From Patescibacteria group bacterium (lineage in GTDB: Bacteria; Patescibacteriota; Patescibacteriia; Patescibacteriales; UBA12465): a stretch of DNA of 64,000 bases. The number at the start of each line of letters is the position of its first letter. The first letter of the stretch is position 1. The notes under the pieces are model-generated. The model had not been told where the DNA came from. It saw only the letters and a program-made list of their open reading frames with translations, and did not search any database. The position numbers were made by a program, and so were the translations under genes. The stretch covers positions 2,647-66,646 of the forward strand of contig JAQVFY010000002.1 of assembly GCA_028696995.1 (NCBI GenBank). Reading direction: 5' to 3'. Positions 1 to 56,520 of the stretch are shown here, in pieces.

Positions 1-471
1 CCATTTTTCTTGAGAATGATAAACTTCACCCAACTCCCAGAAAGCTAAAAAATTTTTATCATCAAGACTAATAACCTCAATTAATTTCTTTTCAGCTTCT
101 AAATAATCACCAGATTTAACAAACTCTTGAGCTGAAGATAATAGAATCTTAATTTTTTCCTCTAAACCAACCGAGGATAAGATTTTTTTATCATCCTTAT
201 CTTTTTGTTTTTGTTTTACTTGACTCAATCTCAACCAAAAAGAACTAGAAATTTTATTAAAAAAATCTAAAATATTATTAAAAAATTTATCTAAAAAAGA
301 AAACTTTCTTTTAATTCTTTCTTTTATTATTTTTTCCTTAATTTTATTCTCTTTCTCCTCGGGAATATTATCAACATCCAAAACCGCCAAAGCCGGAAAA
401 TGACGAAAAATTATAAAAATTATTATCAAAAAAGAAATAGATATAATTATAAGTGGCCAGATATTATACAT
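1..471 (-). CDS. Partial CDS (first 157 codons, continues beyond window start): membrane-anchored TPR-like repeat protein
   Basis: Absent from the track because there is no stop in the window. My minus-strand translation from ATG 471 reads MYNIWPLIIIISISFLIIIFIIFRHF (hydrophobic helix), then SAQEFVKSGDYLEAEKKLIEVISLDDKNFLAFWELGEVYHSQEKW (TPR-like). The frame is open to base 1. The ATG overlaps the tpiA stop. Confidence 0.5.
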   Translation of the reverse strand, partial: MYNIWPLIIISISFLIIIFIIFRHFPALAVLDVDNIPEEKENKIKEKIIKERIKRKFSFLDKFFNNILDFFNKISSSFWLRLSQVKQKQKDKDDKKILSSVGLEEKIKILLSSAQEFVKSGDYLEAEKKLIEVISLDDKNFLAFWELGEVYHSQEKW

Positions 472-1237
472 AGAAAAAATTATTAGCTATTTTCAAAAAA
501 TCTTTAGCCCTCAAACTGCTACTACCAATTAATAAACCAGAAATATCCTCAGAACCTTTAAATTTTTTAAAATTATTAACATTAACACTACCTCCATAAA
601 TAACCCCAAATTCTCGAGGCAAATTATTTTTAAACATGGCGACAATCATTTCTTTAATTTTTTTATGAACCACAATAGCTTCCTTGGCTGAAATATTTTT
701 TCCAGTACCAATAGCCCAAATCGGCTCATAAGCAATAATAATCTTCTTACCGGACAAACTCTTTATTTTAGAGAAGGCCTCTTGCAATTGTTTTTTAATA
801 ACTGCAACAGTTTGACCATTCTTTCTTTGCTTTAAATTTTCTCCCACACATAAAATCGGAATAAGTTTGCTATTTTTAATAATATTTTCCATTTTTAAGG
901 CCATAATTTTATCTTCAGAAAAATATTGTCGCCTTTCACTATGGCCAACTAAAATATATTTACAGCCTAATTTCTCTAAATTTTCTAAAGAAACTTCCCC
1001 AGTATAAGGACCAGAGGAAAAGGGAGAAGTATCTTGAGCTCCATAAAAAATATTTTTATTTTTATTCTTTAAAGATAGCTCCGCTAAAGGTAAAAAATCT
1101 GGTAATAACACAACATCGTTCTTAATGCCTTTTTGAGATCGACCTAGATTTATTTTTTTAGCCAAAGACAAAGATGATTTATAATCTAAATTCATCTTCC
1201 AATTACCAATAATTATAGGACGGATAAAATTTTTCAT
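464..1237 (-). CDS. tpiA: Triosephosphate isomerase
   Basis: Track ORF 464..1315 trimmed to the internal ATG at 1237 (MKNFIRPIIIGNWKMN). TIM motifs present: IIGNWKMN, VGHSERR, AYEPIWAIGTG. Confidence 0.9.
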   Translation of the reverse strand: MKNFIRPIIIGNWKMNLDYKSSLSLAKKINLGRSQKGIKNDVVLLPDFLPLAELSLKNKNKNIFYGAQDTSPFSSGPYTGEVSLENLEKLGCKYILVGHSERRQYFSEDKIMALKMENIIKNSKLIPILCVGENLKQRKNGQTVAVIKKQLQEAFSKIKSLSGKKIIIAYEPIWAIGTGKNISAKEAIVVHKKIKEMIVAMFKNNLPREFGVIYGGSVNVNNFKKFKGSEDISGLLIGSSSLRAKDFLKIANNFFYV

Positions 1238-1241
1238 AATA

Positions 1242-2174
1242 TTATTTATTATTTTTAGACCAATTAATAGTTTTTTTAATTCCTTGATTAAAATCAATTT
1301 GTGGTTTCCAGCCAATAGCGTCTTGAACTCGAGAAAAATCCAAACAACTACGACGCTCTTCTCCCATTTTAGGCTCCAAATATTCCACTTCTACTTTTTG
1401 ATCTAAAGCATTTTCAATAGCCAAAATTATATCCAATAAATTTTTTTCTACTCCAGTACCAATATTAAATTCACCAATAACTCCATCAGTCATAGCTGAA
1501 ATAAAAGCATTAACAACATCATCAACATAAATATAATCCCTGGTTTGAAAACCATCTCCATAAATATAACTTTTTTTACCATTAACAGCATTATCAACAA
1601 AAATAGAAATTACACCAGCCTCTCCCCCTTTATACTGTCGCGGACCATAAACATTAGCTAAACGCAGAGCCACATATTCTTGTCCTAAAACTCGATAATA
1701 ATAATTTAAATACTTCTCAAAACTTAATTTATTTATTCCATAAGGAGAAACGGGATAAGGAGGATAGGTTTCAGGGGTAGGAATTTCCTTAGGAAAACCG
1801 TAAATTGCTCCGCCAGAAGAGGCAAACATTATTTTTTTAACTTTATACTTTTGGCAATTAGATAAAATATTTAAACCACCTAAAATATTAACTTGATTAT
1901 CAAAAATCGGATCTTCCACTGATTTTCTAACATCAATTTGGGCGGCTAAATGATAGACATAATCAAATTTTTCCTCAGCGAAAATAGTAGAAACTTCTGG
2001 ACTAAAAATGTCTAATTGATAAAAAGTGGCCGATTGATTTAAATATTCTTTTTTCCCACTAAACAAACTATCAATAACCACAACCTGATGACCTAATTCT
2101 ACTAATTTATCAACTAAATTAGAGCCAATGAAACCAGCCCCTCCACTTACCAAAATCTTAGACATATAAAACAT
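1242..2174 (-). CDS. NAD-dependent sugar epimerase/dehydratase (UDP-glucose 4-epimerase family)
   Basis: GGAGFIGSNLV Rossmann motif and YGINK (YxxxK) in a 310-aa protein. An alternative ATG at 2165 gives MSKILVSGG. Substrate cannot be called from sequence. Confidence 0.85.
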   Translation of the reverse strand: MFYMSKILVSGGAGFIGSNLVDKLVELGHQVVVIDSLFSGKKEYLNQSATFYQLDIFSPEVSTIFAEEKFDYVYHLAAQIDVRKSVEDPIFDNQVNILGGLNILSNCQKYKVKKIMFASSGGAIYGFPKEIPTPETYPPYPVSPYGINKLSFEKYLNYYYRVLGQEYVALRLANVYGPRQYKGGEAGVISIFVDNAVNGKKSYIYGDGFQTRDYIYVDDVVNAFISAMTDGVIGEFNIGTGVEKNLLDIILAIENALDQKVEVEYLEPKMGEERRSCLDFSRVQDAIGWKPQIDFNQGIKKTINWSKNNK

Positions 2175-4349: not shown

Positions 4350-4793
4350 ATGAATTTATATTTAATAATTTTAACTCCTTTTATTTCTGCTACTATTGCT
4401 CAAATAATAAAAATTTTTCTAGGACAGAGAAATAAAATGAAAATCAAAGATTTTTTCAAAATGACTTATGCTGGAATGCCCTCTGGTCATAGCGCTTTTG
4501 TTGCCTCTCTAGCAACGATAATCGGACTAACAGAAGGATTTAACTCTTCTTTGTTTGCTCTAACCGTAGCCTTCGCCGTTATCGTTATAAATGACGCCCT
4601 GAAACTTCGTCGATATTTAGGCCAACAAGGAGCCATCCTAAATATCTTAATAAAAGACCTAAAAGAAGATCAATTTTTAGATGAAAAATACCCCATCCTC
4701 AAAGAAAGAATCGGGCATACCAAAATAGAAGTTTTAGCTGGAATACTTTTGGGAATTATAATTGGAATAATTATTTTTTTATTAAATAATTAA
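4350..4793 (+). CDS. Divergent PAP2 / acid phosphatase-vanadium haloperoxidase-related membrane protein (DUF212-like)
   Basis: YAGMPSGHSAFVASLAT motif in a small multi-helix membrane protein, 4 nt after the gyrB stop. Confidence 0.65.
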   Translation: MNLYLIILTPFISATIAQIIKIFLGQRNKMKIKDFFKMTYAGMPSGHSAFVASLATIIGLTEGFNSSLFALTVAFAVIVINDALKLRRYLGQQGAILNILIKDLKEDQFLDEKYPILKERIGHTKIEVLAGILLGIIIGIIIFLLNN

Positions 4794-5651
4794 AGATTTT
4801 CCCTCCATTTCTATCGGAATATTTAAATTTAAAATATTTAAAATAGTCGGAGCAACATCCAAATAAGTCCCTGCTGGCGACAACAAACTTAAATCATTAT
4901 TAGGAGCCTCCCCTGAACCAATAACTCGACCCTGATATTTATTACCAATAATCATAAAAGGTACTGGATTAGTACTTCTTTTTTTATTGGCTATACCGGT
5001 TCCCAAATTATAAACATCTTCCGCTCCCCCATAAACTCCTGAAATTATTAAAGTTCCGTCAACACTTAAAACAGTCCGAGCTATTTTATCTAAATTATAA
5101 GAAGTCTCTTCAACTGCCAAAACTGTAGCTGAAAAATCTCCTTGTAAAAATTCACGAGAAATATCAGACAAGGAAGAAAAGATAAAATTATAACGATCAG
5201 ATTTTATATTCTTTATTAATTCATCCACCAAACTACCTTTATTAAAAAAAGACCAAATACCAGAAGAACGCTTATCGCAAACAACCCAGCTCTCATTCAG
5301 AAAACGCTCTGAAGAATTATTAAAAAAAACAGAGAGTAATGGCAAGTCATAACTACTAGCTATCTTCAACTGTCTTAAATTAGCTCGAGAAATAATTTTA
5401 GATAAGCTCAAATTAGAAACATCTTGGCTAATATTTTTTTTACCCAAACCAAGCAAACGATAAGCTTGACTAAGCTTAAAATCACTATCATTTAAGGGAG
5501 TATTAATGATAGTAGCTGGATAATTGGCTACTAAATTCTTAAATCCTAAAATTTCAGCTTTACGAATAGCGTTGTTTTCGATAAAAGAAGAAACTCCCCA
5601 GCCATCAATGGTTAAAAAAACAACTAACTTATTATTCCTAATCGATCTCAT
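4782..5651 (-). CDS. Half-length homologue of cofactor-independent phosphoglycerate mutase (phosphatase domain only, probably non-canonical)
   Basis: The N-terminus LVVFLTIDGWGVS and C-terminus LDVAPTILNILNLNIPIEMEGKSLI resemble the two ends of iPGM. It is only 289 aa and lies last in the pgk-eno operon. Confidence 0.55.
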   Translation of the reverse strand: MRSIRNNKLVVFLTIDGWGVSSFIENNAIRKAEILGFKNLVANYPATIINTPLNDSDFKLSQAYRLLGLGKKNISQDVSNLSLSKIISRANLRQLKIASSYDLPLLSVFFNNSSERFLNESWVVCDKRSSGIWSFFNKGSLVDELIKNIKSDRYNFIFSSLSDISREFLQGDFSATVLAVEETSYNLDKIARTVLSVDGTLIISGVYGGAEDVYNLGTGIANKKRSTNPVPFMIIGNKYQGRVIGSGEAPNNDLSLLSPAGTYLDVAPTILNILNLNIPIEMEGKSLII

Positions 5652-5656: not shown

Positions 5657-6919
5657 TTATTTTAAATTTTCTTCAATTTCTAATAAACGATTATACTTAG
5701 CCAACCTTTCGCCTCGACACAAAGAGCCTGATTTAATAAATTCAGCCGAAACAGCTACCGCTAAATCAGCAATAAAGTCATCACAAGTTTCACCGCTACG
5801 ATGGGAAATCATTAATTTATAATTATTATCTTTAGCTAATTTAATAGTTTCCATAGTTTCACTAATACTACCAACTTGATTAGGTTTAATTAAAATAGTA
5901 TTAGCTACTTTGTTTTTTATTCCCATTTTTAAACGATCTTTGTTGGTCACAAATAAATCATCTCCGATCAACATAATCTTATCCCCTAATTCCTTGGTCA
6001 TAATTTTCCAAGAATCCCAATCATCTTCTGCCAAACCATCTTCAATAAACATAAAATTATATTTATTAACCCAATCATGATATAAAGTAATCAAATCATA
6101 GGCCTTTAGACTAGAATTATCCAAAGAAAAAATATATTCCTTCTTTTTATCATCATATAGCTCCGAAGATCCAACATCAGTTCCCATAAAAACATCTCGC
6201 CCCATCTGATAACCAGCGCGAGAACTAGCTAGACTTATATAATTAATAGCATCAATTGTAGAGTCAACATTAGGGGCATAACCACCTTCATTACCAACAT
6301 CGATATCTAAATTATTCTCTTTCAAAACCTTAGACAATTCATGAAAAATTTCAGACCCCATTCGAAGTTTTTCGGAAAAACTAGAAATATTAATATTAGG
6401 AACCACCATAAATTCTTGAAAATCTAAATTAGTATCAGCATGTTTTCCGCCATTAAAAATATTAAAGGATGGAGTTGGTAATTTAAAATCATTATTTTTA
6501 AAACCAAAAGAACTGGCTAAATATTGATATAATTCTTGATTAGAAGCTAAAGCTCCAGCTCGACAAACAGCCATAGAAACCGCTAATATAGCATTAGCTC
6601 CCAACTTACTCTTATTATCAGTCCCATCTAATTTTATCATTTTTTTATCAATCTTTTCCTGATTAAAAACACTTTCTCCAATTAAAACTTTAGCCAAATG
6701 AACATTAATATTATTTACAGCCTTTAAAACCCCTAAGCCACGATAACGCTTAACATCTCCATCTCTTAATTCATGGGCCTCATGAACTCCAGTAGAAGCC
6801 CCTGAGGGAACGGCTGACTTAGCCCATAAACCATTTTCTAAAAAAACCTTAGCTTCGATTGTTGGATTTCCTCGAGAATCCAAAATCTCCCTCCCTATAA
6901 TTTTCACTATTTTTGACAT
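5657..6919 (-). CDS. eno: Enolase
   Basis: SKIVKIIGREILDSRGNPTIEA, SHRSGETCD and KYNRLLEIEE in a 420-aa protein. Confidence 0.95.
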   Translation of the reverse strand: MSKIVKIIGREILDSRGNPTIEAKVFLENGLWAKSAVPSGASTGVHEAHELRDGDVKRYRGLGVLKAVNNINVHLAKVLIGESVFNQEKIDKKMIKLDGTDNKSKLGANAILAVSMAVCRAGALASNQELYQYLASSFGFKNNDFKLPTPSFNIFNGGKHADTNLDFQEFMVVPNINISSFSEKLRMGSEIFHELSKVLKENNLDIDVGNEGGYAPNVDSTIDAINYISLASSRAGYQMGRDVFMGTDVGSSELYDDKKKEYIFSLDNSSLKAYDLITLYHDWVNKYNFMFIEDGLAEDDWDSWKIMTKELGDKIMLIGDDLFVTNKDRLKMGIKNKVANTILIKPNQVGSISETMETIKLAKDNNYKLMISHRSGETCDDFIADLAVAVSAEFIKSGSLCRGERLAKYNRLLEIEENLK

Positions 6920-6947: not shown

Positions 6948-8117
6948 TTAATTTATTCCTGGCATTTTTTCTCCGGCTAAATAAGATAACATTGCTCCAC
7001 CACCAGTAGAAACAAAATCCATATATTGACTCATGCCTGACGAGTTAAGGGCCTCCACAGTTTCTCCTCCTCCGCAAACACCAAAAGCTCTGCCACTGGC
7101 ACGAGAAGCTATTTCCCTAGCAATAATTACAGTTCCCTTCTTAAATTTTTCATCCTCAAACATTCCCAGAGGACCATTCCAAACAATAGTTTGCGCCTTT
7201 TTAATATACTGAGAAAATAATAAAATAGTTTCAGGACCAATATCTAAAATACGATCATTATCAGAAATTTCAGCTATCTTTTTAATACTAATAATTGGTT
7301 TTGCAAGAGAAGATTCATCTCGGACCACTACATCTACTGGTAATATTATTTTTTTTGAATTTAAAAATCTTTTTACCAACTTAATTCCATCTTTATCAAC
7401 CAAAGATTTGCCAATATTGAAACCCTGAGCCAAATAAAAATCATTGATCAAAGCTCCTCCTAATAATATATAAGAAGCTTTAGAATATAATTTCTTAATA
7501 ATAGGAATTTTAGTAGAAATTTTAGCTCCACCCATTACTACGACAGAAGGACGTTTAGGATGTAATATTTTATTTAAATTTAAAATTTCTTTCTCCAATA
7601 AAAGACCCATGAAAGATGGCATATTACTGCGAATAGCTGAAATTGAAGAATTCGCTCGGTGAGAAACAGCAAAAGCATCATTAACATAAACATCAGCTAA
7701 AGAGGCCAAAGATTTAGCCAGGCGCTTGCAATTTCTCTCTTCTCCATTATAAAAACGAAGATTATCTAGTAAAAAAATATCTCCACCAGATAAAATCTTT
7801 TTTCTAATTTCACTAAATTTTGAAAATTCTCGATAATCAAAAAAAATAACTTTTTTGTCTAAAATTTTTTCTAAATATTTAGCCACCAGAGCTAAAGAAT
7901 ATTTAGACTCAAAACCATTCTTAGGTTGACCCAAATGACTAGCTAAAACTAGTCGACATTTATTTTTCAATAAGAAATTAATTGTTTCTAAGCTTTGGCG
8001 AATTTTAAAATCTTCCTTGAGCTTTCCTGAACTTAAAACAACATTAAAATCTACCCGTAAAAAAACGGTTTTATCAACTACTTGCCGGTAATTTTTTCGT
8101 AAATTCTTTAATTTCAT
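6948..8117 (-). CDS. pgk: Phosphoglycerate kinase
   Basis: VFLRVDFNV N-terminal motif, GGAKISTKI, and STGGGAMLSYL near the C-terminus, in a 389-aa protein. Confidence 0.95.
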   Translation of the reverse strand: MKLKNLRKNYRQVVDKTVFLRVDFNVVLSSGKLKEDFKIRQSLETINFLLKNKCRLVLASHLGQPKNGFESKYSLALVAKYLEKILDKKVIFFDYREFSKFSEIRKKILSGGDIFLLDNLRFYNGEERNCKRLAKSLASLADVYVNDAFAVSHRANSSISAIRSNMPSFMGLLLEKEILNLNKILHPKRPSVVVMGGAKISTKIPIIKKLYSKASYILLGGALINDFYLAQGFNIGKSLVDKDGIKLVKRFLNSKKIILPVDVVVRDESSLAKPIISIKKIAEISDNDRILDIGPETILLFSQYIKKAQTIVWNGPLGMFEDEKFKKGTVIIAREIASRASGRAFGVCGGGETVEALNSSGMSQYMDFVSTGGGAMLSYLAGEKMPGIN

Positions 8118-8119
8118 AA

Positions 8120-9256
8120 TTATTTCAAATCAATTTTAAAATCTATTAACTCTCCTGAACGTAAAACGGAAACTACTAAGCGCTCTCCAACAACAAAATT
8201 GTTTAAAACATCGTTTAAATTACTGAAATTATCTATTTCATAATTATTTATTTTAACAATTACATCTCCAGCCTCAATTCCCGCTAAATCGGCTAAACCA
8301 TCCTTAACCAAGGCTGGTAAATTATTATTATTAATCCAAGCTCCATAAGCTGGTAAATTTTTCCCAGCAATTTCTCGAAGATCAACATAATAAACACCGA
8401 ACTTAAAAGATTCAACCTTTTTATTCTTCAAAAAACTATAAATTCGAGAACGAAAATCATGAACGGGCAATATATTTAAATTGTTATCAACCAAAGCCAA
8501 AAGATCACCATTTAAATCAAAGAGAAAATTACTCTTAAAATCAGCGGATAAGGTATTATTTAAAGAAATAACGTTTTGAAAATCATCGGAAAATTTAATT
8601 TTATTATCAGAGTCAATAGATTTTAGAAAATTAACCGAAACCTGACCAGAAAAATTATAAGCTATAATACTCTGACCACTTCTTAAACTAGAAACATTTA
8701 CCAAATTTCTAACTGGGAAATTATTAGAATTTTTTATTTTAATAAACATTAAATCTTGATCAAGAGCCTCAACAACTTCCTCAATTTGATAAATTTTCTT
8801 ATCTTTTTTTGATAATAAAATATAAGCATCTTTTTTCTGAGAAATAATTTTAGCAACATTTTCTCTTCCTAAAACATTTAATAAAACCCAACCATCACTA
8901 CTAATTACTAAACCAGACAAAACCTCTTCACCAACAAAATAATCTGCCCGACTAATTTTATCACTATCTTTAGCTACAGGGAAAACACCTAGAACTACTT
9001 CATCCAGATAATTAACAGTCTCATCTATTTTTAAATCTTGACTAACATAAACCTTACGTGGATCCTGAATAACAAAACCAGCACTACTATACTCAGGGGA
9101 ATCTAAATTAATATCTTGGCCAAAACCCCAAAAACCCACCCCTGATTTAGGGGTAAAATAAGAAGACCACAGAATTCCTCCCAAAACCAAGGACACCAGA
9201 ATGGTTAAAAGCAATAATATTGCCAAATTATAAGTATTCTTTTTCATATTGATCAT
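8120..9256 (-). CDS. Membrane-anchored HtrA-like protein with C-terminal PDZ domain; protease triad not evident
   Basis: N-terminal TM helix and a trypsin-fold-like middle region (SDGWVLLNV, DQDLMFIKI). The PDZ-like end reads GIEAGDVIVKINNYEIDNFSNLNDVL...VSVLRSGELIDFKIDL. No GNSGGPL-type serine motif was found. Confidence 0.55.
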   Translation of the reverse strand: MINMKKNTYNLAILLLLTILVSLVLGGILWSSYFTPKSGVGFWGFGQDINLDSPEYSSAGFVIQDPRKVYVSQDLKIDETVNYLDEVVLGVFPVAKDSDKISRADYFVGEEVLSGLVISSDGWVLLNVLGRENVAKIISQKKDAYILLSKKDKKIYQIEEVVEALDQDLMFIKIKNSNNFPVRNLVNVSSLRSGQSIIAYNFSGQVSVNFLKSIDSDNKIKFSDDFQNVISLNNTLSADFKSNFLFDLNGDLLALVDNNLNILPVHDFRSRIYSFLKNKKVESFKFGVYYVDLREIAGKNLPAYGAWINNNNLPALVKDGLADLAGIEAGDVIVKINNYEIDNFSNLNDVLNNFVVGERLVVSVLRSGELIDFKIDLK

Positions 9257-9257: not shown

Positions 9258-10013
9258 TTAACGCCATTTTATTGTCGAAAACAAGACAAGGAAAAGGGCT
9301 ATTATAAAAATTAAATTATATTTTATTTTTTTATTAGTTAAACTATTTAATAAACTAAATCTCATAAAACTTAAAGAAAAATAATAAGTTATAGCTAAAA
9401 TTAAGCCTAAAAAATTAAAATTGAAAGGAAAGAAAGACAATGCTCCTGCTATAGGAGAAATAGATAATAAAAATAAAAAAGACAAAAACAAACTTTCTTG
9501 ATAATTTTTATTAATAATAAAAATGTTTTGCCAGATAGCTAAAAGTAAAACTAAAACTATAATCAAAAGAGATACCCAGCTAGCAATATTTAAAAAGTAA
9601 TTTAAGCCATAAGCAAAAGACGAAACTAAAAAAACAGAAAGGAGGCCCAAAACATCAGTCCAAGTAGAAAACCCATCGGTAGAAATAGCACTATTTCTAA
9701 GTAAATAACGACTCCAACCTTTAAAATAATAATAAGATAATAATAAACCTAAAAATAAAAATAAAATGACAATTAACTTACTAGCTAATAAACTAGAATA
9801 AAAAAATAAACTATTTATAAAAACCCAAGGCAAAACAAAATAAGAAAATCTGCCCTGACTATTAATAGTTGTTTTTAATTTATAACCATAAAATAAAAAA
9901 ATTAAATTAAAGGCCAGCAGACACCAATAATAAGAACCTGGTAAATAAAAAGCCACCAGAAAAACTAAAATAAACAAAAAATGAAAAAATAGCGTTATTT
10001 TCTTAATTAACAT
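9258..10013 (-). CDS. Polytopic membrane protein, unknown function
   Basis: 251 aa, almost entirely hydrophobic helices. It lies 2 nt upstream of the HtrA-like gene. No motif recognised. Confidence 0.5.
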   Translation of the reverse strand: MLIKKITLFFHFLFILVFLVAFYLPGSYYWCLLAFNLIFLFYGYKLKTTINSQGRFSYFVLPWVFINSLFFYSSLLASKLIVILFLFLGLLLSYYYFKGWSRYLLRNSAISTDGFSTWTDVLGLLSVFLVSSFAYGLNYFLNIASWVSLLIIVLVLLLAIWQNIFIINKNYQESLFLSFLFLLSISPIAGALSFFPFNFNFLGLILAITYYFSLSFMRFSLLNSLTNKKIKYNLIFIIALFLVLFSTIKWR

Positions 10014-17882: not shown

Positions 17883-20105
17883 TTATTTTAATTTAAATTT
17901 TTTCTTAATATCAGCAATTAGAGGTTCAGCTCTATCTGGCTTGGGATTATAACGAAGCAACCAAAAAACTGCCGTTCTAAAAGATGTCCAACAATAATAC
18001 AGTTTAATTCTCTCCTTTAATCTAATATTATAGTTAATCTTAGCACTTCGACAATAAGTAGTAATAAAAATATCAATTATTTTTCTAACATAAGATCTAT
18101 TATAATTAAATTTTATTAATTTATACTCCAATTGCTGAATAAAAGACCCTAAATCACGAGCAAAATCTGAAGGACAAATGTCAGTAAAATCGATCATCGC
18201 TATTTTTTGACGACCCATTTTTATAATATTTTCCGGATGAACATCTCCATGTATCAACCACCTCTTAGAACTAAGATTAAAAAAATCTTCTTCCAATTCA
18301 ATTAAATAATCATAAATTTTCTTCAAATCTTTAACATACTTATCGTCATATTTATCTTTAACATTTTTTAAAACTTGATTATAGCCAGGAACAACTGTTT
18401 TAATTCTGCTATTTCTCTTATTAAAACTAATTATATCGGAAATTGGAGTTTTATGCAATTTTGCCAACCATTCCGCTGTTTTTTTCACAACTTTTTCTAC
18501 CTCTTTTTTTTCATTATTTTTAATAAAAGTTAATAAATCATCACCCTTAACTCCTCGATAAAAAGAGGCATTAAAATGTTTAGAATAAAACAAAGGCTTA
18601 GGAATTGTTAAAAAACCCTTAGAAAAACCATGCTCCCACAAATAACTCAAATTATCATAGACATTTTTCCTTGGTTCACTAGAATGAGCGGTACAAAAGA
18701 AAGACAAAGACTTAATATTTTTCTTTGATTTCCCGCCAATTTTAGGGATAAAGAAGGTTTTAAATTCTAAAACAACATGATAAGTTGTTTGCCAGATATA
18801 ATCCTTGTGATAAATTATTTTTATTCTTTCGATTTTTTTAAAATCAGGATAAAGTGGTAATATTTTTTTAGTAAAAAGATTTCTAACATAACTTTCACTC
18901 AATAATCTATTAATCTTATTATTACTCTTTAATTTATTGCGAGAATGATAAGACCAATGTTTACTCCAAACAGCTTTTTTAATCGCTACAAAAATATTTT
19001 CTGATTTAATTTTCTCGGCATAAGAAGTAGAATTTTCTAAAGACCGAATAGAGCGAATTAACTCATTAGCCCCTCTTTCGATTTCATCTGGATTCCAAGC
19101 TTGAGGACCAAAATTATGCTTGAAATCATTAGCACTAGCCCACCAAAAAGTACAACTAGCCAAACCCCTTACTAGATGCCAACGAAACCAATTGTAATTA
19201 ATATCATCTCTATTTTTTTCACCAATATTAACAGCTAAATTAACCAATTTCCAAAGTTTAGTATGAATTTCGTTATTTTTATCACTCCAAAGACGAAAAG
19301 GTTGTTTGGCTAATAACTCTTTTTCAGTTGATTCCCAATTACTTTTTCGAATCGTAATTTCCTCTATTTTTTTAAACTTAGAAATATAAGCAGAAATCAG
19401 AGATGTTTTTAATAATTTATTAGTTAAAACTTTTTCTAGCTTCCCATTATTATCATTATGTCTCAATCCATATAACTCTCCATCAGTAGCACTAATAATA
19501 ACTCGATCATCATTTTTATTCTTAATTTTACTTGTTAATATTTTTTCAATTTCATCAGGCACATAACAATTAGAAAATTTCCTAGAACGGAAAATAATTT
19601 TTAAAGCACTATTTTTATCAATATAAACATTTTCAGGAACAATCTTCTTGCGTCCCTGATAAGAAATTTCATCTAATATCAACCATTTATAACCAAGCTT
19701 CTTAACAATTTTGGCAACTTCAGAACTATAGGCCATTTCCGGAAGAAAAAACCCCTTCAATTTAGCTTTGGGAAAATACTTTTTAATTATTTCCTCATTT
19801 TCTTTAATTTGATCGCAAACCTCCCTTTTATTAACTAAAGGTAATAAAGCATGATAAGCAGCTGATCCGGTTAATTCAATTTGACCTCGCTCTAATAAAT
19901 TATTAATTTTTTCTATCAAATCAAAATATTTTAATTCTACTAAACGAGAAATTAAACAACCTGAAATATTAATATTAAATTTAATATCAGGATTATCCTC
20001 TAAGGCCTGAATAACCCTCTTGTAACTAAGCTCCACAGCTTCTTTTATTTTATAATAATCAGAATTAGCTGGTTGATACCAATGTAAAAAATTAATCCAC
20101 AACAT
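17883..20105 (-). CDS. Fusion protein: N-terminal GH57-family glycoside hydrolase domain plus C-terminal APH/choline-kinase-like phosphotransferase domain
   Basis: GH57-like regions: LHWYQP, RGQIELTGSAAYH, FFLPEMAY, SATDGELYG. Kinase motifs: LIHGDVHPENII (HGDxHxxN) and MIDFTD. 740 aa, immediately downstream of glgA. Confidence 0.65.
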   Translation of the reverse strand: MLWINFLHWYQPANSDYYKIKEAVELSYKRVIQALEDNPDIKFNINISGCLISRLVELKYFDLIEKINNLLERGQIELTGSAAYHALLPLVNKREVCDQIKENEEIIKKYFPKAKLKGFFLPEMAYSSEVAKIVKKLGYKWLILDEISYQGRKKIVPENVYIDKNSALKIIFRSRKFSNCYVPDEIEKILTSKIKNKNDDRVIISATDGELYGLRHNDNNGKLEKVLTNKLLKTSLISAYISKFKKIEEITIRKSNWESTEKELLAKQPFRLWSDKNNEIHTKLWKLVNLAVNIGEKNRDDINYNWFRWHLVRGLASCTFWWASANDFKHNFGPQAWNPDEIERGANELIRSIRSLENSTSYAEKIKSENIFVAIKKAVWSKHWSYHSRNKLKSNNKINRLLSESYVRNLFTKKILPLYPDFKKIERIKIIYHKDYIWQTTYHVVLEFKTFFIPKIGGKSKKNIKSLSFFCTAHSSEPRKNVYDNLSYLWEHGFSKGFLTIPKPLFYSKHFNASFYRGVKGDDLLTFIKNNEKKEVEKVVKKTAEWLAKLHKTPISDIISFNKRNSRIKTVVPGYNQVLKNVKDKYDDKYVKDLKKIYDYLIELEEDFFNLSSKRWLIHGDVHPENIIKMGRQKIAMIDFTDICPSDFARDLGSFIQQLEYKLIKFNYNRSYVRKIIDIFITTYCRSAKINYNIRLKERIKLYYCWTSFRTAVFWLLRYNPKPDRAEPLIADIKKKFKLK

Positions 20106-20108
20106 ATT

Positions 20109-21578
20109 TTAATTCTTAATTTTTAAAGCTTTTTTATATAACTCTACATATTTTCTAGCGGGAATCTCCCAACTACTAGATTTATGCATTGCTCGAACAA
20201 TTAATTCTTCCCAAGTTTTTTTATGTTTATAATTTTCTAAAGCTCGAGCAATAGCTCCAAAAAAAGCAAACTCATCTTCCATTTTAAAAACAAAACCTGT
20301 CCCTTTATTAGTCAAAGGACTAAAATTATCAACAGTATCACGCAAACCACCAACCCCTCTGACAATAGGAATAGCACCATAACGCATAGCTATCATTTGA
20401 TTTATTCCACAAGGCTCAAAATATGAAGGAAGAATAAAAAAATCAGAAGCCGAATAAAGCAAAGTTTCTTTATCGGAATTAACTTGAAAAGGTAGCCATA
20501 ACATTTTTTTGGGATATTTCTTTTGCATCCTCTTTAATTCTTTAATATAGTCAGAATCACCATCTCCCATAAATATCATCTGCAAATCCAAACGCAAAAC
20601 ATAAGGTAATATTTTTAAAATAACATCGAAACCCTTTTGATGAGCTATTCGAGAAGTAGAACAAAATAGAGGAAGATCCTCATCAACAGTAAGACCAAAT
20701 TTCTTTTGTAAATATTTTTTATTTTCACTTTTAAGCTGATAACTTTCAAAATTATACTTCCTAAACAAACCTTTGTCCTTCTGCGGATTATAAGAATTAT
20801 AATCAATGCCATTAATAATTCCAAACAAGCGATCTTCCTTATTCTTTAAAATACGATGCAAATCCTGACCAAATTTCTTAGTCATAATTTCTTCGCGATA
20901 TCTCTCGCTAACAGTATTAATAATGTCAGCTGACAAAATAGCTCTTTTAGCAAAATTAATATTTAAAAGATCAGGATCATTAAAAGAAGGAAGTTTTTTA
21001 CGACCATAATCCTTTTTTTCAGCAGGAACACTATACCAAGGACGACTCATTTGAAAAGCTAAATTATGAATAGTAAAAATTGTTTTAGTTTCTTGTAAAT
21101 TCTTAGTATAACGATAATTATTTTTTATAAAATAAGGAATCAGACCGGTATGCCAATCATGACAATGAATAATATCAGGGACCTGCTCTAATAAATTAAT
21201 TAACTTCAAAGAAGCAATATTAAGAATTAAAAATCTAATATTATCCCGATGGGAAATATAAATCTTTTTTAAACTTGAAAAGTGCTCTTTATTTTCAATA
21301 AAATAAACTGGTAAACCATTGATCAATTGCCCCTGCCAAAAATTAACTAAAATAGAATTTTCCTTATCAATTATTATATTAACATCCTTAAAAATTAATT
21401 TAAGATTATAATTCTTCTTATCAATTATTTTTCCATAAAGTGGAGTAATAATAGAAACTTTATGTCCCAAGCGAAACAAAGCTTTAGGCAAACTTCGAGT
21501 AACATCTCCTAAGCCCCCAGTTTTAGAAAATGGAGAAACTTCAGAAGTAATATGAATTATATTTAACTTTTTTGGCAT
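20109..21578 (-). CDS. glgA: Glycogen/starch synthase (GT5)
   Basis: HITSEVSPFSKTGGLGDV N-terminal motif, and EPCGINQM in the C-terminal Rossmann half. 489 aa. Confidence 0.9.
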   Translation of the reverse strand: MPKKLNIIHITSEVSPFSKTGGLGDVTRSLPKALFRLGHKVSIITPLYGKIIDKKNYNLKLIFKDVNIIIDKENSILVNFWQGQLINGLPVYFIENKEHFSSLKKIYISHRDNIRFLILNIASLKLINLLEQVPDIIHCHDWHTGLIPYFIKNNYRYTKNLQETKTIFTIHNLAFQMSRPWYSVPAEKKDYGRKKLPSFNDPDLLNINFAKRAILSADIINTVSERYREEIMTKKFGQDLHRILKNKEDRLFGIINGIDYNSYNPQKDKGLFRKYNFESYQLKSENKKYLQKKFGLTVDEDLPLFCSTSRIAHQKGFDVILKILPYVLRLDLQMIFMGDGDSDYIKELKRMQKKYPKKMLWLPFQVNSDKETLLYSASDFFILPSYFEPCGINQMIAMRYGAIPIVRGVGGLRDTVDNFSPLTNKGTGFVFKMEDEFAFFGAIARALENYKHKKTWEELIVRAMHKSSSWEIPARKYVELYKKALKIKN

Positions 21579-47638: not shown

Positions 47639-50600
47639 CTAAACGTAAGTAACACTAGCCACGCAGTCATTTGCGTCTTTAAAGCGCATAATGCGGACTC
47701 CCTGGGTATCACGGCCCAATTCATTAACTGACTTATATGGCAAACGAATAACCTGCCCCTTATCGGAAATAATTATCAAATCCTTACCCTCCATGTTGTC
47801 CTTATTTATCACAAAGGCGTTACTAATTTTTCCGGTTTTATCGGTAACCTTAGCAGTACGAATACCACTGCCTCCACGACCCTGTAATTTATATAAATCC
47901 AAATCAGTTCTTTTTCCATAACCTTGATCCATAATAGTTAAAATCTGATAACTACGCTTAACTCCTTTTTCAACTTTTATAACCCCCATCCCAACAACAA
48001 TATCTCCCTTTTTCAATTTAATACCACGAACACCCGAAGCATTACGACCCATGTCACGCACCTCTTTTTCAGCAAAACGAATAGCTTGCCCATTGGCACT
48101 TATCAAACTAATATGGTCAGATCCAGAAGTTGGCTTACACCAAATCAATTTATCATCATTTTTTATCTTAATCGCTATCAAACCACTACGTCGGACATTA
48201 GAGAAAGCATTAATTTGTACTTTTTTAACTAAACCTTGTTCAGTAGCAAAGAATAAATAATTATAGGCAGCTATTTTATCCAAAGGTAAAATAGAGGTAA
48301 TTTTTTCTCCGCCAATTAATTGCAAGAAATTAACAATTGGAGTTCCCTTGGCGGTGCGAGAGGCCTGAGGAATTTCATGAGCTTTTAATTGAAAAACTCG
48401 ACCCTTGGTGGTAAAAAATAATATATCATTATGAGTTTGAGTAATAAACATGAAATCGACGCTATCCTCTTCTTTGGTGGTCAAACCAATAACACCCTTA
48501 CCTCCACGAGCTTGGACCTTAAAAGTATCAGGGTCTAAACGTTTAATATAGCCATCACGAGTCATCATTACCATTGTTTCTTCGTTTGGAATCAAATCTT
48601 CAACATTAAAACTCTTAACTCCATGAGCTACCACTTGGGTACGACGTTCATCACCAAATTTCTCTCCCAATTCTGTAATCTCAGTTTTAATAATATTTCT
48701 AATCTTGGCCTTAGAAGCTAAAATAGCTTCTAATTCTTTAATCAATTTTAATTTTTCCTTTAACTCATCCTCAATTTTAATCCTTTCCAAATTAGCCAAA
48801 CTTTGCAATCTCATCTCCAAAATAGCTATAGCCTGTCTTTCAGATAATTTAAATTTCTTTATCAAATTTTCTTTAGCTACATCCTTATCTTTAGATGCCT
48901 TAATAACTTTAATAACCTCATCAATATTTTTTAAAGCAATCATCAAGCCCTCTAAAATATGGGCCCTATCTTTGGCTTTATTTAATTCAAATTCAGTACG
49001 ACGATAAACTACTTCTTGGCGATGTTTAATATATTCCTCTAAAACCATTTTCAAAGTCAAAACCTTGGGCTGAATTCCATCAATCAAAGCTAACATATTA
49101 ACATGAAAAGTGCTTTGCAAAGCAGTGTTTTTATACAAACTATTTAATATTTTCTTAGGATAAGAATCTTTTTTAAGATCTAAAACAATGCGAACCCCTT
49201 CTTTATCAGACTCATCACGCAAACCCTTAACTCCGTCTAATTTTTTATCTTTAACCAAGTCGGCAATTTTTTCTACTAAGGTTGCCTTATTAACTTGATA
49301 AGGAATTTCGGTAATAATTATTTGAAAATTACCATTTTTATCTTCTTTAATATCAGCTCGACCACGACAAACTATTCCCCCTTTGCCGGTAGCATAAGCA
49401 TTTAAAATATCTTTTTTATCATAAATAATTCCACCAGTTGGGAAGTCCGGCCCCTTAACATGTTCCATTAAGTCTTCTACTGTAGATTCTGGTTTATCAA
49501 TCAATAAGTTTATAGCTCCAATCAATTCACTTAAATTATGAGGAGGAATATTAGTAGACATACCGACAGCAATTCCCATGCCTCCATTTAATAATAGGTT
49601 AGGTAATTTCGCTGGCAAAACCTGAGGCTCTTTTTGTGAACCGTCGTAATTAGGTATAAAATTAACGGTATTTTTATCAATATCAAATAATAATTCCTCA
49701 GTAATAGCTGATAATTTAGCCTCGGTATTATGATTTATGAAGCCATTAGCTATAAAGGAATGACAAGGGCTATCAACTTTAATAGAAAAAACATTTTCCT
49801 TGTCTTTCAAATTTTCCTTTGACTTAACTTGATTGAAAAAGTAATTATTCTTTAATAAATAATCAATCATTTTTAAATCTGAAGAATTTAAGATGCTCTT
49901 TAATTGATTATAATTTTTTCTTAAACTATTATAACGATCAAAATTGTTCTCAACTATAAAACTATTTTTATAATTTGATCTTAAATAATTATTTAAAAAT
50001 GGAATAAAGTCATTATGACTCAAGCGAGTAGTATTGATTTCCGAGATCTTAGATAAAATTCCTCTTTTACGTTGAGAAAAAAAGTTAATGTTTTTTTGAA
50101 AATTTACAATACTATCAACTCCGGAAATTATTAATTTATAGCAAGCATTTCTCTTATCCTGATAAGGAGAAGTAGTAACTACACCAAAATTCAATAAAAC
50201 TGTTTTTAATTGACTGATAAGTTTCTTGCTTTTAGAATTATAAGTCAGCTCAATAGACTGACCTGAATGTCTTTTGTCTTTTTTAAAAGAAACAGAACCA
50301 TCTCCCTCAAATAATGCTTGCAAAAAAGAAGAAATAACTACTCGGCTAGACATTAAAACAGAAAAAGGAATTTCCTTTGCGTCAGATTTTTTAGAAGACA
50401 ATCCAATTTCTTTCAAAAACTCAACAATATTTTTTTCATAAATACAAAGTTCTGGACAATTACCCTTTAAAATTCTTTCATATAATTTAACTTCCGGAAA
50501 TTGCTGAGAAATTATATTTTTAACTTTATTATAAAAATCTTTATCGGAATTACAAAAGAAAAATTTATTTTGATGATAAGACCCTTCTGACACTAAAGCT

Positions 50601-51565
50601 CCTAAAAGAAAAGCTAAGTCTTTAGTCATCTTTTTAGGTAGAGTAATTTTTTTACTCTTAATATTTTCTAAAGGATAAAATTTTTCTAAATCCAAATCAT
50701 CTTTAGAAAATAAAGACGCTCCTCGACTTAAAGGTAAATAATCATTTTTATTAATATTTTCTAAGGTTTTCCAATAAAAATAGGGTTGACCAAATTCGTT
50801 TAAGCCCCACAATAATAGAGGATGATTATATGAACCACGAATTTCATAACCCTGCTCAGTGCTTATTTTTACAATCTCATGCTTGCCAGAATTAAAAAAT
50901 TTAATAGCTGGTTTTATTTTCCCTTGATAATTTAAAATATTTATCTTTATTTTCTCTTCACTTTTTTTGGATAATGAATTTATTTCTACTAGACCTCGAT
51001 CAGTTAAAAGTAGCGTATCGCCAGTAATACAATACCTCATCGCCGCCGCACTATCACCGTCCATAGAACCAAAGTTTCCTTGACCCCGAACCAGCGGATA
51101 ACGCATCGAAAAGTCCTGCGCCATACGAACCATAGAATCATAAACAGCACTATCGCCATGAGGATGATATTTACCTAAAACTTCTCCAACCACTGTAGCT
51201 GATTTACGAAATTTAGCATTGGCCTTTAAACCAATATCCCACATCGCATACAAAATACGACGATGAACCGGTTTCATACCATCACGAGCATCCGGCAAGG
51301 CTCGAGAAACAATAACACTCATAGCATAATCCAGATAAGATGAGCTCATTTCTTCACTAATAGATTGATTTTGCACAACGCCAAATTCAGTTTGACGACG
51401 ACCATTACCATTTGTTTCTGTCGACTCTTCAATTGGATTATTTTCAACAACATCCTCAGAAATATCTTTAGAAATTTCCTTATCAGTACTCTTAGAAATA
51501 TCTTTTTTAGCTGGCTTAGCTGAATTATCAGCTATAGTCTTCTTATTTTTATCTGATTTCTTCAT
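47639..51565 (-). CDS. gyrA: DNA gyrase subunit A, interrupted by an in-frame intein
   Basis: Extein motifs [32 protein letters not shown] and AAMRY then TEAKLS, plus C-terminal beta-pinwheel repeats. 1308 aa including the 435-aa intein. The N-terminal extension of about 65 aa is K/E/S-rich. Confidence 0.95.
49727..51031 (-). mobile_element. GyrA intein with LAGLIDADG homing-endonuclease domain, inserted after the catalytic Tyr
   Basis: Residues 179-613 start [11 protein letters not shown] directly after AAMRY and end FINHN directly before TEAKL. LAGLIDADG blocks are [14 protein letters not shown] and [12 protein letters not shown]. Boundary codons were verified on the sequence (TGT at 51031-51029, AAT at 49729-49727). 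Confidence 0.9.
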
Positions 51566-52166: not shown

Positions 52167-52775
52167 TTATTCTTTAATACCGTCCAAATTAATATCATAT
52201 AATATTTGTTCTGATACTAAACGATATTTTAAAATTTCTTCATCATTAAACCACAACTTTATTTCTCTCTGAGCCTCTTCCGGTGAATCAGAACAATGAA
52301 TTAAATTGCGCACAGCTCGACTATCTAAATTTGATAATTCATAAGAATCCAAAGTTAAGTCTCCACGAATAGTACCAACATCAGAAGTGGTTGGTTCAGT
52401 TCCTCCCACAATCTTTTTAACAATAGCTACGGCTTGATTACCCTCAAAAATCATCGGAACTATTGGACCACAGGTCATAAATTTTACCAAGGCTCCAATA
52501 ATATCACGGCCATATTCAATAGCCTCTTTTTCTATCGGCATACCAGATTTTTCCATATTCTCTAAAACTTTCTGCCCTTTCTCTAAAAACCATTTTTCAT
52601 CTTTATTATAATGTTTCCAACATTGATCATCGTTGGCTATAATCATTTTCATAGCAGTCATTTTCAAACCAGTTCGCTCAATTCTAGAGATCAATTCACC
52701 GACTAGAGTTCTTTGAACAGCATCGGGCTTTAAAATTACAAAAGTTTGCTCTTTTTTAGGATTAACTGTACTCAT
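52167..52775 (-). CDS. ndk: Nucleoside diphosphate kinase (long form with internal insertions)
   Basis: TFVILKPDAVQR, GTIRGD, NLIHCSDS (active-site His). Track ORF trimmed to ATG 52775 (MSTVNPKK). About 202 aa. Confidence 0.85.
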   Translation of the reverse strand: MSTVNPKKEQTFVILKPDAVQRTLVGELISRIERTGLKMTAMKMIIANDDQCWKHYNKDEKWFLEKGQKVLENMEKSGMPIEKEAIEYGRDIIGALVKFMTCGPIVPMIFEGNQAVAIVKKIVGGTEPTTSDVGTIRGDLTLDSYELSNLDSRAVRNLIHCSDSPEEAQREIKLWFNDEEILKYRLVSEQILYDINLDGIKE

Positions 52776-52877
52776 ATTTTTTCTATTAATGTTATTAAAA
52801 TATTTCTTTTTAAATCTTTTTAATTTCTGATTATCAGAGAAAAATCTTAAAAACAATATTTATTAATTATTTTTATT

Positions 52878-54993: not shown

Positions 54994-55012
54994 GATACAG
55001 TCTCCTATTTTT

Positions 55013-55112
55013 ATTGGTTAGTTTAAAATTTAATTGTCTTGCAAATCAACAAAAAATGATATTAAATCAAATAAAATCATTGACTTGCTAGACAATTAAA
55101 ATATTAACCAAT
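55013..55112 (-). promoter_or_regulatory. Long imperfect inverted repeat forming an extended stem-loop in the leader of CDS 53845..54993
   Basis: The left arm ATTGGTTAGTTTAAAATTTAATTGTCTTGCAA (55013-55044) pairs with the right arm TTGCTAGACAATTAAAATATTAACCAAT (55085-55112). An inner AATGAT...ATCATT pair lies in the loop. Confidence 0.5.
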
Positions 55113-55141
55113 CTTGTTAATGTACCTAATTTTAACTTGAA

Positions 55142-55424: not shown

Positions 55425-55443
55425 ACCACGATTTGACTGAACC

Positions 55444-56486: not shown

Positions 56487-56520
56487 TCTCAGTTGTGATT
56501 TAAAATTCTTTAACAAACAA

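What the first reader, a model, noticed from the sequence alone, without database searches (positions are those of the whole stretch)
4782..5651. Glycolytic operon ends in a half-size iPGM homologue with apparently degenerate metal ligands
Seen: the operon order on the minus strand is pgk, eno, then this 289-aa ORF. Its two ends match the two ends of cofactor-independent phosphoglycerate mutase: TIDGWG near the N-terminus, and TNPVPFMII and LDVAPTILNxLNLxIPxEMEGKSLI near the C-terminus.

From memory, iPGM is about 510 aa, with a phosphotransferase domain of about 230 aa inserted between the two halves of the phosphatase domain. That insert is missing here. Where I expect ADHGN the ORF reads GVYGG. 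The His before TNPVP reads Arg, and the GNSEVGH serine region reads NDSDFKL.

Inference: either a pseudoenzyme or regulator retained in the operon, or a minimal phosphatase with a new role. No other PGM is visible in this window.
Basis: partly seen in the sequence, partly recalled or inferred. Interest (0 to 1): 0.55.

Follow-up and report, generated by a model that had tools for sequence, protein, structure and literature searches.

The report
Half-size, catalytically dead iPGM relative
The last gene of this glycolytic operon encodes a conserved half-size relative of cofactor-independent phosphoglycerate mutase that has lost its substrate-binding domain and almost all its metal ligands, so this group of tiny-genome bacteria keeps it for something other than the textbook reaction.

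Summary
Window 4782-5651(-) encodes a 289-aa protein, 5 nt after eno, in the cluster TM protein-PDZ-pgk-eno-ORF. It is the alkaline-phosphatase-like core of iPGM (AF2 pLDDT 91; best PDB matches are iPGMs). The ~230-aa transferase domain is replaced by a ~10-residue linker. Five of six Mn ligands, K336 and the GNSEVGH motif are gone.

It is not a private pseudogene. There are 68 protein clusters (33-96% identical) and 33 GTDB species of Parcubacteria/Falkowbacteria-like Patescibacteria, all with the same synteny. dN/dS is 0.06-0.21, the same range as pgk and tpi.

Relatives carry two canonical iPGMs in tandem after eno (A and B). The short form shares the ~16-residue insertion (EAPNNDLSLL) specific to B. 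Intermediates exist: A plus a short B with an intact metal site, A plus a partly decayed short B, and a full-length but decayed form.

The best reading is a non-catalytic pseudoenzyme descended from paralogue B. I infer a binding or regulatory role linked to enolase or PGK. I found no other PGM in the window or in the 12-21 kb loci around the short genes. Whole genomes could not be scanned, so who performs 3PG<->2PG here is open. This is a new variant of a known kind, of moderate interest.

The parts
4782..5651 (-). 289-aa iPGM-core-only protein: a domain-deleted, metal-ligand-less descendant of paralogue B of gpmI
   Evidence: ORF. Pfam PF01676 only. AF2 pLDDT 91 and Foldseek best hits are iPGM, E ~1e-17. 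68 homologous clusters. dN/dS 0.06-0.21.
5406..5444 (-). Junction (residues ~70-82, KKNISQDVSNLSL): a short linker where the ~230-aa phosphotransferase domain of iPGM would be inserted
   Evidence: The HMM of full-length iPGMs matches positions 1-~55 and ~309-525 only. PDB alignments. Block-mean pLDDT dips to 72 for residues 71-80.
5025..5039 (-). GVYGG (residues 205-209) in place of the ADHGN metal-ligand motif (D444, H445)
   Evidence: Sequence. Alignments.
4959..4985 (-). KKRSTNPVP (residues 223-231): R225 replaces the ligand H462 and K224 replaces a conserved Glu
4875..4937 (-). Insertion specific to paralogue B (residues ~239-259, YQGRVIGSGEAPNNDLSLLSP). It is absent from the A-type and from Geobacillus iPGM, and holds several of the family's invariant or near-invariant residues
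   Evidence: Column conservation: G241, D253 and S255 are 94-100% conserved in B-type and in short forms, and are gapped or variable in A-type. The pattern [ED][AP][PL]NND[LI]S[LS][LI] retrieved 33 species.
5657..6919 (-). eno (420 aa), 5 nt upstream of the short ORF
   Evidence: Pfam Enolase_N and Enolase_C. Adjacent to the short gene in every related locus that extends upstream of it.
6948..8117 (-). pgk (389 aa)
   Evidence: Pfam PGK, E 1e-122. Synteny.
8120..9256 (-). 378-aa protein with a C-terminal PDZ domain, upstream in the same gene cluster
   Evidence: Conserved synteny.
9258..10013 (-). 251-aa multi-pass membrane protein, first gene of the same-strand cluster
   Evidence: No Pfam hit. 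Conserved in the nearer relatives.
4350..4793 (+). Convergent DUF212 (divergent PAP2) membrane protein gene. Its 3' end overlaps the short ORF's 3' end by 12 nt. It is a conserved downstream neighbour and is not claimed as functionally linked
464..1315 (-). tpiA: another glycolytic gene nearby, in conserved synteny

Best explanation
The ORF is a pseudoenzyme derived from a cofactor-independent phosphoglycerate mutase.

Shown:
- Related Parcubacteria carry two canonical gpmI genes in tandem directly after eno, called A and B here. B is marked by a ~16-residue insertion (EAPNNDLSLL).
- The window protein carries the B insertion and sits in the same slot.
- It has lost the whole phosphotransferase domain, which supplies all the glycerate-binding residues.
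- It has also lost 5 of the 6 Mn ligands, K336 and the GNSEVGH nucleophile motif.
- It still folds as the alkaline-phosphatase-like core.
- It is kept by purifying selection as strong as that on pgk and tpi.
- It lies 5 nt downstream of eno in a five-gene same-strand cluster.

Inferred:
- The former active-site positions differ between subfamilies of the short form. What stays conserved is the fold, the B-specific insertion and the C-terminal helix. The retained function is therefore probably non-catalytic.
- The most likely role is as a binding partner (scaffold, stabiliser or regulator) of a glycolytic partner such as enolase or PGK. The protein would use surfaces that paralogue B already had.
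- The 3PG<->2PG step is then done by an unlinked enzyme or is missing.
For: Architecture and fold.

Loss of catalytic residues. The window protein reads D16 / K336->D / D403->S / H407->L / D444->V / H445->Y / H462->R. Every canonical-only invariant is lost in the near subfamily.

No new conserved polar constellation: the family-specific conserved residues are F37, Y64, K96, F103, W122, I244, N251 and N252.

Family and selection:
- 68 clusters down to 33% identity and 33 GTDB species.
- Identical synteny PDZ-pgk-eno-short-(DUF212, gyrB) in the related loci as far as each extends.
- dN/dS is 0.06-0.21, against eno 0.02-0.13, pgk 0.05-0.27 and tpi 0.09-0.29 in the same genome pairs.

Descent from paralogue B:
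- Tandem canonical A+B in L044 and L038.
- The insertion is shared with B only.
- tblastn gives 33% identity (3e-33) to B against 26% (4e-12) to A.

Intermediates:
- eno-A-short with an intact metal site and Ser->Cys (L047).
- pgk-eno-A-short, partly decayed, followed by DUF212-gyrB (L049).
- eno-full-length decayed form-DUF212-gyrB (L043).

Precedent that lineage-specific iPGM loops mediate partner binding: cyanobacterial iPGAM-PirC (PMC12077085).
Against: - No partner or binding has been shown. The role is inferred from what is and is not conserved.
- The gene sits exactly where the real PGM gene sits, in an operon whose products (PGK, enolase) need a PGM between them.
- No other PGM was found in the 64-kb window or in about 40 loci of 6-21 kb around short genes.
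- Jaffe et al. [quoted passage not shown] This leaves room for a cryptic catalytic role.
- In the near subfamily D16, S61, Y64, Y207, K224 and R/K225 are conserved around the old site. They could form a metal-free phosphate-binding pocket.
Confidence: 0.6

Rival explanations
1. The short protein is still the cell's phosphoglycerate mutase, or another phosphotransferase or phosphatase. It would work by a non-canonical, metal-poor mechanism, possibly intermolecular with a bisphosphate cofactor as in phosphopentomutase, or in complex with enolase or PGK.
For: - It occupies the gpmI slot after eno in every species.
- It is selected as strongly as pgk and tpi.
- No other PGM was seen in the window or flanks.
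- PGM is reported absent from some Parcubacteria clades.
- D16 and S61 are retained, and Lys/Arg replace E461/H462 in the near subfamily.
Against: - All glycerate-binding residues (H123, R153, D154, R185, R191, R261, R264) went with the transferase domain.
- Five of six metal ligands and K336 are replaced.
- The replacements differ between the near and far subfamilies. H462 is R/K in one and L/M/I in the other, H445 is Y in one and G/A in the other, and K336 is D in one and R in the other. No common catalytic site therefore exists across a family that shares the same synteny.
Confidence: 0.2
2. It is a non-catalytic sensor that binds a phosphorylated metabolite (3PG, 2PG or PEP) in the remnant pocket and thereby regulates something. 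This is a special case of the pseudoenzyme reading, with a ligand rather than a protein as the key partner.
For: The near subfamily conserves Ser, Tyr, Lys and Arg at former active-site positions (S61, Y64, Y207, K224, R225). It is linked in an operon to enzymes that make and use phosphoglycerates.
Against: Those positions are not conserved in the far subfamily. The substrate-binding domain is gone. No DNA-binding or signalling domain is attached.
Confidence: 0.12
3. It is one half of a split enzyme, and a separately encoded transferase domain reconstitutes iPGM.
For: Domain-level gene fission is common in reduced genomes. The deletion is precise at the two hinges.
Against: No ORF matching iPGM positions 80-308 exists in the window or in any of the ~40 short-only loci. 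The metal ligands needed on the phosphatase half are missing anyway.
Confidence: 0.03
4. It is a decaying remnant (pseudogene) of gpmI with no function.
For: Loss of a domain and of catalytic residues is what decay looks like.
Against: - The ORF is intact in 33 species and 68 clusters, with a conserved length of 258-300 aa.
- dN/dS is 0.06-0.21.
- AF2 predicts a confident compact fold.
- The gene is translationally coupled to eno.
Confidence: 0.02

Closest known systems
Cofactor-independent phosphoglycerate mutase GpmI/iPGM (TIGR01307; PF01676 + PF06415; structures 1EJJ, 2IFY, 5VPU)
   Same: It is homologous over the whole phosphatase (alkaline-phosphatase-like) core. Foldseek gives E ~1e-17 and TMq ~0.8, and the family profile matches 1EJJ at E 7e-43. 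It occupies the same gene slot after eno as canonical gpmI. It keeps D12, the NAI helix, the NPVP strand and the C-terminal APTIL helix.
   Different: It has no transferase domain. Five of six Mn ligands, K336 and the GNSEVGH motif are lost. It scores 75.8 bits against a cutoff of 330.65. It therefore fails the defining features of the family.
Paralogue B of Parcubacteria iPGM (for example L038 5038-6654 and L044 10001-11602; P0235 and P0254 are annotated Ca. Falkowbacteria)
   Same: It shares the B-specific insertion GxxxGxxEAPNNDLSLLxPxG, and it sits directly after eno and before DUF212.
   Different: B is 530-540 aa, has all catalytic residues and evolves slowly (61-93% identity among the listed 120 hits). 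The window protein is 289 aa and decayed.
Short iPGM-core proteins with an intact metal site (P0128, P0142, P0155, P0160 with Ser62->Cys; P0170 with Ser; P0134 keeps 5 of 6 ligands)
   Same: They have the same domain excision (HMM positions ~1-80 plus ~309-525) and the same slot after eno, or after eno-A.
   Different: They keep D12, K336, D403, H407, D444, H445 and H462 and may still be phosphotransferases. The window protein keeps only D12.
Phosphopentomutase DeoB and archaeal apgM (other PF01676 members)
   Same: They have the same core fold but are weaker structural matches: 3M7V and 4N7T at E ~3-4.5e-9, and 2ZKT at 1.4e-9.
   Different: They have their own cap domains and full metal sites. 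There is no sequence-level hit in NCBIfam.
Dead-paralogue pseudoenzymes in general (for example trypanosomatid AdoMetDC prozyme; from my own knowledge)
   Same: It is an enzyme homologue that lost catalytic residues but is kept under selection beside its pathway.
   Different: Here a whole domain is also deleted, the active paralogue (A) is no longer adjacent, and no partner is known.

Membership tests
iPGM / GpmI (TIGR01307) | Two-domain architecture with the PF06415 phosphotransferase domain inserted in the core | tested here: not met
   No PF06415 hit. The HMM matches positions 1-~55 and ~309-525 only.
iPGM / GpmI (TIGR01307) | Score at or above the curated family cutoff | tested here: not met
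   75.8 bits against 330.65. PRK05434 scores 70.6 against 862.
iPGM / GpmI (TIGR01307) | Six ligands of the two Mn2+ ions (D12, D403, H407, D444, H445, H462) | tested here: not met
   Only D12 (D16) is kept. The others read S, L, V, Y and R.
iPGM / GpmI (TIGR01307) | Nucleophile Ser62 in GNSEVGH, plus K336 in ETEK | tested here: not met
   The motif reads FKLSQAY. S61 is one residue off register and is not conserved in the far subfamily. K336 is D102. The region does not align significantly to 1EJJ.
iPGM / GpmI (TIGR01307) | Glycerate-binding residues H123, R153, D154, R185, R191, R261, R264 | tested here: not met
   All lie in the deleted domain.
iPGM / GpmI (TIGR01307) | 3PG<->2PG mutase activity | not testable with these tools
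   Needs an enzyme assay or complementation.
Metalloenzyme superfamily domain (PF01676) / alkaline-phosphatase-like core fold | Domain match above the gathering score, and the alpha/beta core fold | tested here: met
   51.2 bits against 24.3. AF2 pLDDT 91 and pTM 0.91. Foldseek to iPGM cores and other AP-superfamily members.
Metalloenzyme superfamily domain (PF01676) / alkaline-phosphatase-like core fold | Bimetal site | tested here: not met
Pseudoenzyme (dead homologue kept under selection) | Loss of residues essential for the ancestral chemistry | tested here: met
Pseudoenzyme (dead homologue kept under selection) | Purifying selection and conservation across species | tested here: met
   dN/dS 0.06-0.21 over 17 genome pairs. 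33 species with the same synteny.
Pseudoenzyme (dead homologue kept under selection) | Demonstrated absence of catalysis and a defined non-catalytic role | not testable with these tools
   Needs biochemistry and interaction assays.
dPGM (TIGR01258) / apgM (TIGR00306) | Sequence membership | tested here: not met
   No NCBIfam hit to either. No RHG[EQ][ST] motif anywhere in the window.

The most novel reading that the evidence does not exclude
This Falkowbacteria-like clade has no conventional PGM of any type. In that case the metal-less, single-domain protein, alone or bound to enolase or PGK, supplies the 3PG<->2PG step by a new mechanism. Otherwise these cells run a lower glycolysis that is interrupted at PGM, with the pseudoenzyme serving the rewired pathway. 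My evidence does not exclude this. No other PGM was seen in the sequence I could read, and a published survey found PGM 'absent' in some shallow Parcubacteria clades.
Probability: 0.12. Interest if true: 0.85.

Novelty: new variant of a known kind. Interest (0 to 1): 0.55.

Why it matters
1. Annotation. [quoted passage not shown] Metabolic reconstructions of Patescibacteria will therefore either wrongly close or wrongly open lower glycolysis. This family is a candidate explanation for the 'too divergent' PGM gap noted by Jaffe et al. 2020.

2. Evolution. The loci give an unusually complete series in tiny genomes:
- tandem active paralogues;
- loss of the transferase domain, apparently more than once;
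- stepwise loss of metal ligands;
- loss of the active neighbour.

3. Physiology. It turns the question of whether these episymbionts have a continuous path from 3PG to PEP into a testable one. A few enzyme assays and whole-genome HMM scans would answer it.

Tried and rejected
Searches for a second PGM:
- A second iPGM, a stand-alone transferase domain or a histidine-phosphatase PGM in the window: none found. I used an HMM of 81 full-length iPGMs on six-frame ORFs, an RHG[EQ][ST] motif scan, and Pfam on 45 ORFs.
- The same iPGM HMM on all 52 fetched loci: only the expected genes.
- A canonical iPGM elsewhere on the large contigs that carry short forms (901,513; 895,742; 742,870; 740,209; 372,379; 331,145; 300,047; 288,435 bp). 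I compared 'longest_contig' values in the hit lists for B-type and A-type queries. The trick works: at least 12 contig lengths are shared between the A and B lists, which reflects tandem A+B. No short-form contig appears in either list. The lists are capped at 120 hits (down to ~59-61% identity), so this is weak negative evidence only.
- Identifying genomes through NCBI names and accessions: the names are truncated. I learned only that P0001 is MDD3711072.1, locus tag PHP37_00480.

Other dead ends:
- Foldseek against afdb50: the library was not available.
- Literature on a truncated or pseudoenzyme iPGM, or on Falkowbacteria glycolysis: nothing found.
- The context of degenerate full-length P0110: the contig was too short to say anything.

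Rejected readings:
- Pseudogene, on dN/dS.
- Split enzyme, because there is no partner ORF and no ligands.
- Assembly artefact, because independent assemblies from NCBI, JGI, ENA and Logan agree.

Not attempted:
- Enolase-short complex prediction.

Full report
**1. The observation**

The window is ~30% GC. Its best protein matches come from Patescibacteria MAGs. The ORF product is identical to NCBI MDD3711072.1, locus tag PHP37_00480, annotated 'hypothetical protein', on a 74,983-bp contig.

On the minus strand lie five tightly spaced genes:
- a 251-aa membrane protein (9258-10013);
- a 378-aa PDZ protein (8120-9256);
- pgk (6948-8117);
- eno (5657-6919);
- the 289-aa ORF (4782-5651).

The gaps between them are 1, 2, 28 and 5 nt. 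No credible terminator lies between the genes.

Pfam finds only the Metalloenzyme core (PF01676) and no iPGM_N. The NCBIfam iPGM model scores 75.8 bits against a cutoff of 330.65. Against solved structures, residues 8-49 and 82-288 align to residues 4-45 and 316-510 of G. stearothermophilus iPGM. The phosphotransferase domain (HMM positions ~80-308) is replaced by about ten residues.

An AlphaFold2 model built on 68 homologues is confident (pLDDT 91, pTM 0.91). Its best PDB matches are iPGMs (E ~1e-17, TMq ~0.8), followed by other alkaline-phosphatase-superfamily cores.

**2. Catalytic residues**

I aligned 216 short and full-length relatives to a canonical reference. The window protein keeps D12 (as D16) but reads D at K336, S at D403, L at H407, V-Y at D444-H445 and R at H462. 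All seven substrate-binding residues of the transferase domain are absent.

A column-by-column comparison used 80 B-type and 60 A-type canonical iPGMs. Every position that is invariant only in canonical enzymes is lost in the window's subfamily. These positions include G-N-S-E-x-G-H, E-T-E-K-x-A-H, D403, H407, D444, H445, N447 and H462.

The canonical motif aligns to F58...Y64. S61 is one residue off register and becomes Asn in distant members. H66 is an invariant Tyr.

Residues conserved specifically in the short family are F37, Y64, K96, F103, W122, I244, N251 and N252. None of these suggests a new catalytic constellation. The old active-site positions carry different residues in the near and far subfamilies.

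**3. It is a family under selection, not a private pseudogene**

- The 5.8-billion-protein search gave 68 clusters of 258-300 aa, 33-96% identical, plus the identical P0001. All are from Patescibacteria.
- A profile search of 1.84 billion representatives gave 814 hits below 1e-30. About half of the best 150 are short forms.
- A scan of GTDB species genomes found 33 loci. Where titles are informative, they read Ca. Falkowbacteria, Parcubacteria or Patescibacteria.
- All but one of these loci (L038, treated in section 4), plus six metagenome loci, show the order PDZ-pgk-eno-short followed by convergent DUF212 and gyrB, as far as each locus extends.
- Nei-Gojobori dN/dS over 17 genome pairs is 0.06-0.21 for the short gene. 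In the same pairs eno gives 0.02-0.13, pgk 0.05-0.27 and tpi 0.09-0.29.

**4. Where it came from**

In Shapirobacteria a canonical gpmI follows eno.

In closer relatives, two canonical iPGMs follow eno in tandem. L044, on a 903,786-bp contig, reads pgk-eno-A(517 aa)-B(533 aa)-DUF212. L038 reads eno-[inserted element]-A(532)-B(538). All catalytic residues are intact in both copies.

B, but not A, carries an insertion of about 16 residues, GxxxGxxEAPNNDLSLLxPxG. The short family carries it too, and it holds several of the family's invariant residues. The window protein is also closer to B than to A: 33% identity (3e-33) against 26% (4e-12).

Several intermediates exist:
- L047 reads eno-A(529)-short(303). 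The short form has all six metal ligands and Cys at the nucleophile position.
- L049 has the same downstream synteny as the window. It reads pgk-eno-A(532, canonical)-short(294, partly decayed)-...-DUF212-gyrB.
- L048 and the window clade read eno-short-DUF212-gyrB, without A.
- L043 reads eno-P0096-DUF212-gyrB. P0096 is full-length, but both of its domains are decayed.
- L051 reads eno-short with a fully canonical phosphatase site.

Among the 50%-identity representatives, 6 of 69 short forms keep all six ligands and 45 keep two or fewer. Of 73 full-length forms, 36 keep all six and 22 keep three or fewer.

A rough NJ tree places the intact-site short forms apart from the window family. This suggests, but does not prove, more than one domain loss.

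**5. How it most likely works**

Shown:
- The protein cannot use the iPGM mechanism. That mechanism needs a Mn-activated phospho-Ser and a transferase domain that holds and re-orients glycerate.
- The protein is nevertheless maintained like a housekeeping gene and is translationally coupled to eno.

Inferred:
- Selection preserves the fold, the B-specific insertion and the C-terminal helix, but not the old pocket. The retained function is therefore probably non-catalytic.
- The most likely role is binding to a partner in the same pathway (enolase or PGK), as a scaffold, stabiliser or regulator.
- Lineage-specific iPGM loops are known to mediate partner binding in cyanobacteria, where iPGAM binds PirC (PMC12077085). 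This makes the idea reasonable but does not prove it.
- My confidence is about 0.6 for 'non-catalytic pseudoenzyme derived from B' and about 0.85 for the descent alone.

**6. The open point**

The PGK and enolase genes are both under strong constraint, and the pathway between their products needs a PGM. I found none in any of the following:
- the 64-kb window;
- any flank around a short gene;
- the contig-length comparison, in which none of the large short-form contigs appears in the top-120 hit lists for A- or B-type iPGM. This test is weak because the lists are capped.

Jaffe et al. [quoted passage not shown] The window protein would fall below their iPGM threshold (75.8 bits against 164.4). 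One genome in their set is the source of locus L029, which carries the short form.

Whole genomes could not be scanned with these tools. A cryptic catalytic role (about 0.2) or a truly PGM-less pathway therefore remains possible.

**7. Comparison with what is known, and novelty**

The protein is homologous to iPGM but fails every defining feature of that family except the core fold. It should not be annotated as gpmI. NCBIfam has no dedicated model for it, and no paper describing it was found.

It is a new variant of a known kind: a domain-deleted pseudoenzyme derivative of a glycolytic enzyme.

Interest is moderate (0.55). Pseudoenzymes are common, but several features make this one worth a bench test:
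- the conserved operon slot;
- the graded evolutionary series;
- the recurrent loss of the same domain;
- the unresolved PGM step in a whole clade of episymbiotic bacteria.

Noticed in passing
L044 8384-11602; L038 3456-6654; also L045, L046: Related Parcubacteria with genomes of about 0.9 Mb keep two fully canonical iPGM genes in tandem after eno (A ~517-532 aa, B ~533-538 aa with a ~16-residue insertion). At least 12 contig lengths are shared between the A-type and B-type hit lists, so the duplication is widespread. Why a minimal genome keeps two iPGMs is unexplained.
   Followed up: partly
P0128/L047 8001-8912; P0142, P0155, P0160; P0170/L051 2701-3585: Other short (domain-deleted) iPGM cores keep all six metal ligands. 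Several have Cys in place of the nucleophile Ser. These could be active phosphotransferases of unknown specificity.
   Followed up: partly
P0096/L043 1654-3225; P0110, P0135, P0140 and others: Many full-length (~520 aa) iPGM homologues in the same profile search have lost metal ligands and transferase-domain arginines. Active-site decay is therefore not restricted to the short forms.
   Followed up: partly
window 47639-51565 (-): The gyrA gene (1308 aa) is interrupted by an intein with a LAGLIDADG homing-endonuclease domain (Pfam Intein_splicing and LAGLIDADG_3).
   Followed up: no
window 53845-57220: Three GC-rich islands (GC 0.49-0.60 in a ~30% GC genome) coincide with three ORFs that have no Pfam hit. 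One is a 382-aa secreted protein. One is a 263-aa protein with a long PQ/PA repeat, a TM helix and a coiled-coil tail (55444-56235, -). One is a 194-aa ORF (56615-57199, +). No rRNA or Rfam family is there. They may be foreign or host-interaction genes.
   Followed up: partly
window 17883-21578 (-): A 740-aa fusion of a GH57 glycoside hydrolase with an APH-type kinase domain lies next to a glycogen/starch synthase. This suggests that glycogen metabolism feeds the glycolytic genes.
   Followed up: no
L038 2588-3425: Two small ORFs are inserted between eno and the first gpmI: a 170-aa ORF that looks by eye like an ImmA/IrrE-type protein (not scanned) and a 106-aa membrane ORF. They break the usual eno-gpmI adjacency.
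   Followed up: no
window 4782-4793: The short ORF and the convergent DUF212 (divergent PAP2) gene overlap by 12 nt at their 3' ends. DUF212 and gyrB are the downstream neighbours in nearly all related loci that extend that far.
   Followed up: no
window 52167-52856 (-): Nucleoside diphosphate kinase is 229 aa long and matches the NDK model in two stretches. It is longer than the 135-position NDK model, and the extra sequence is unexplained.
   Followed up: no
record titles: Many GTDB species genomes that carry this Patescibacteria locus are titled 'uncultured Gammaproteobacteria bacterium' in their records. These labels are evidently wrong.
   Followed up: no
L043 261-1605: The enolase next to the decayed full-length iPGM homologue P0096 is split into two frames. 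This is either a frameshift or an assembly error.
   Followed up: no
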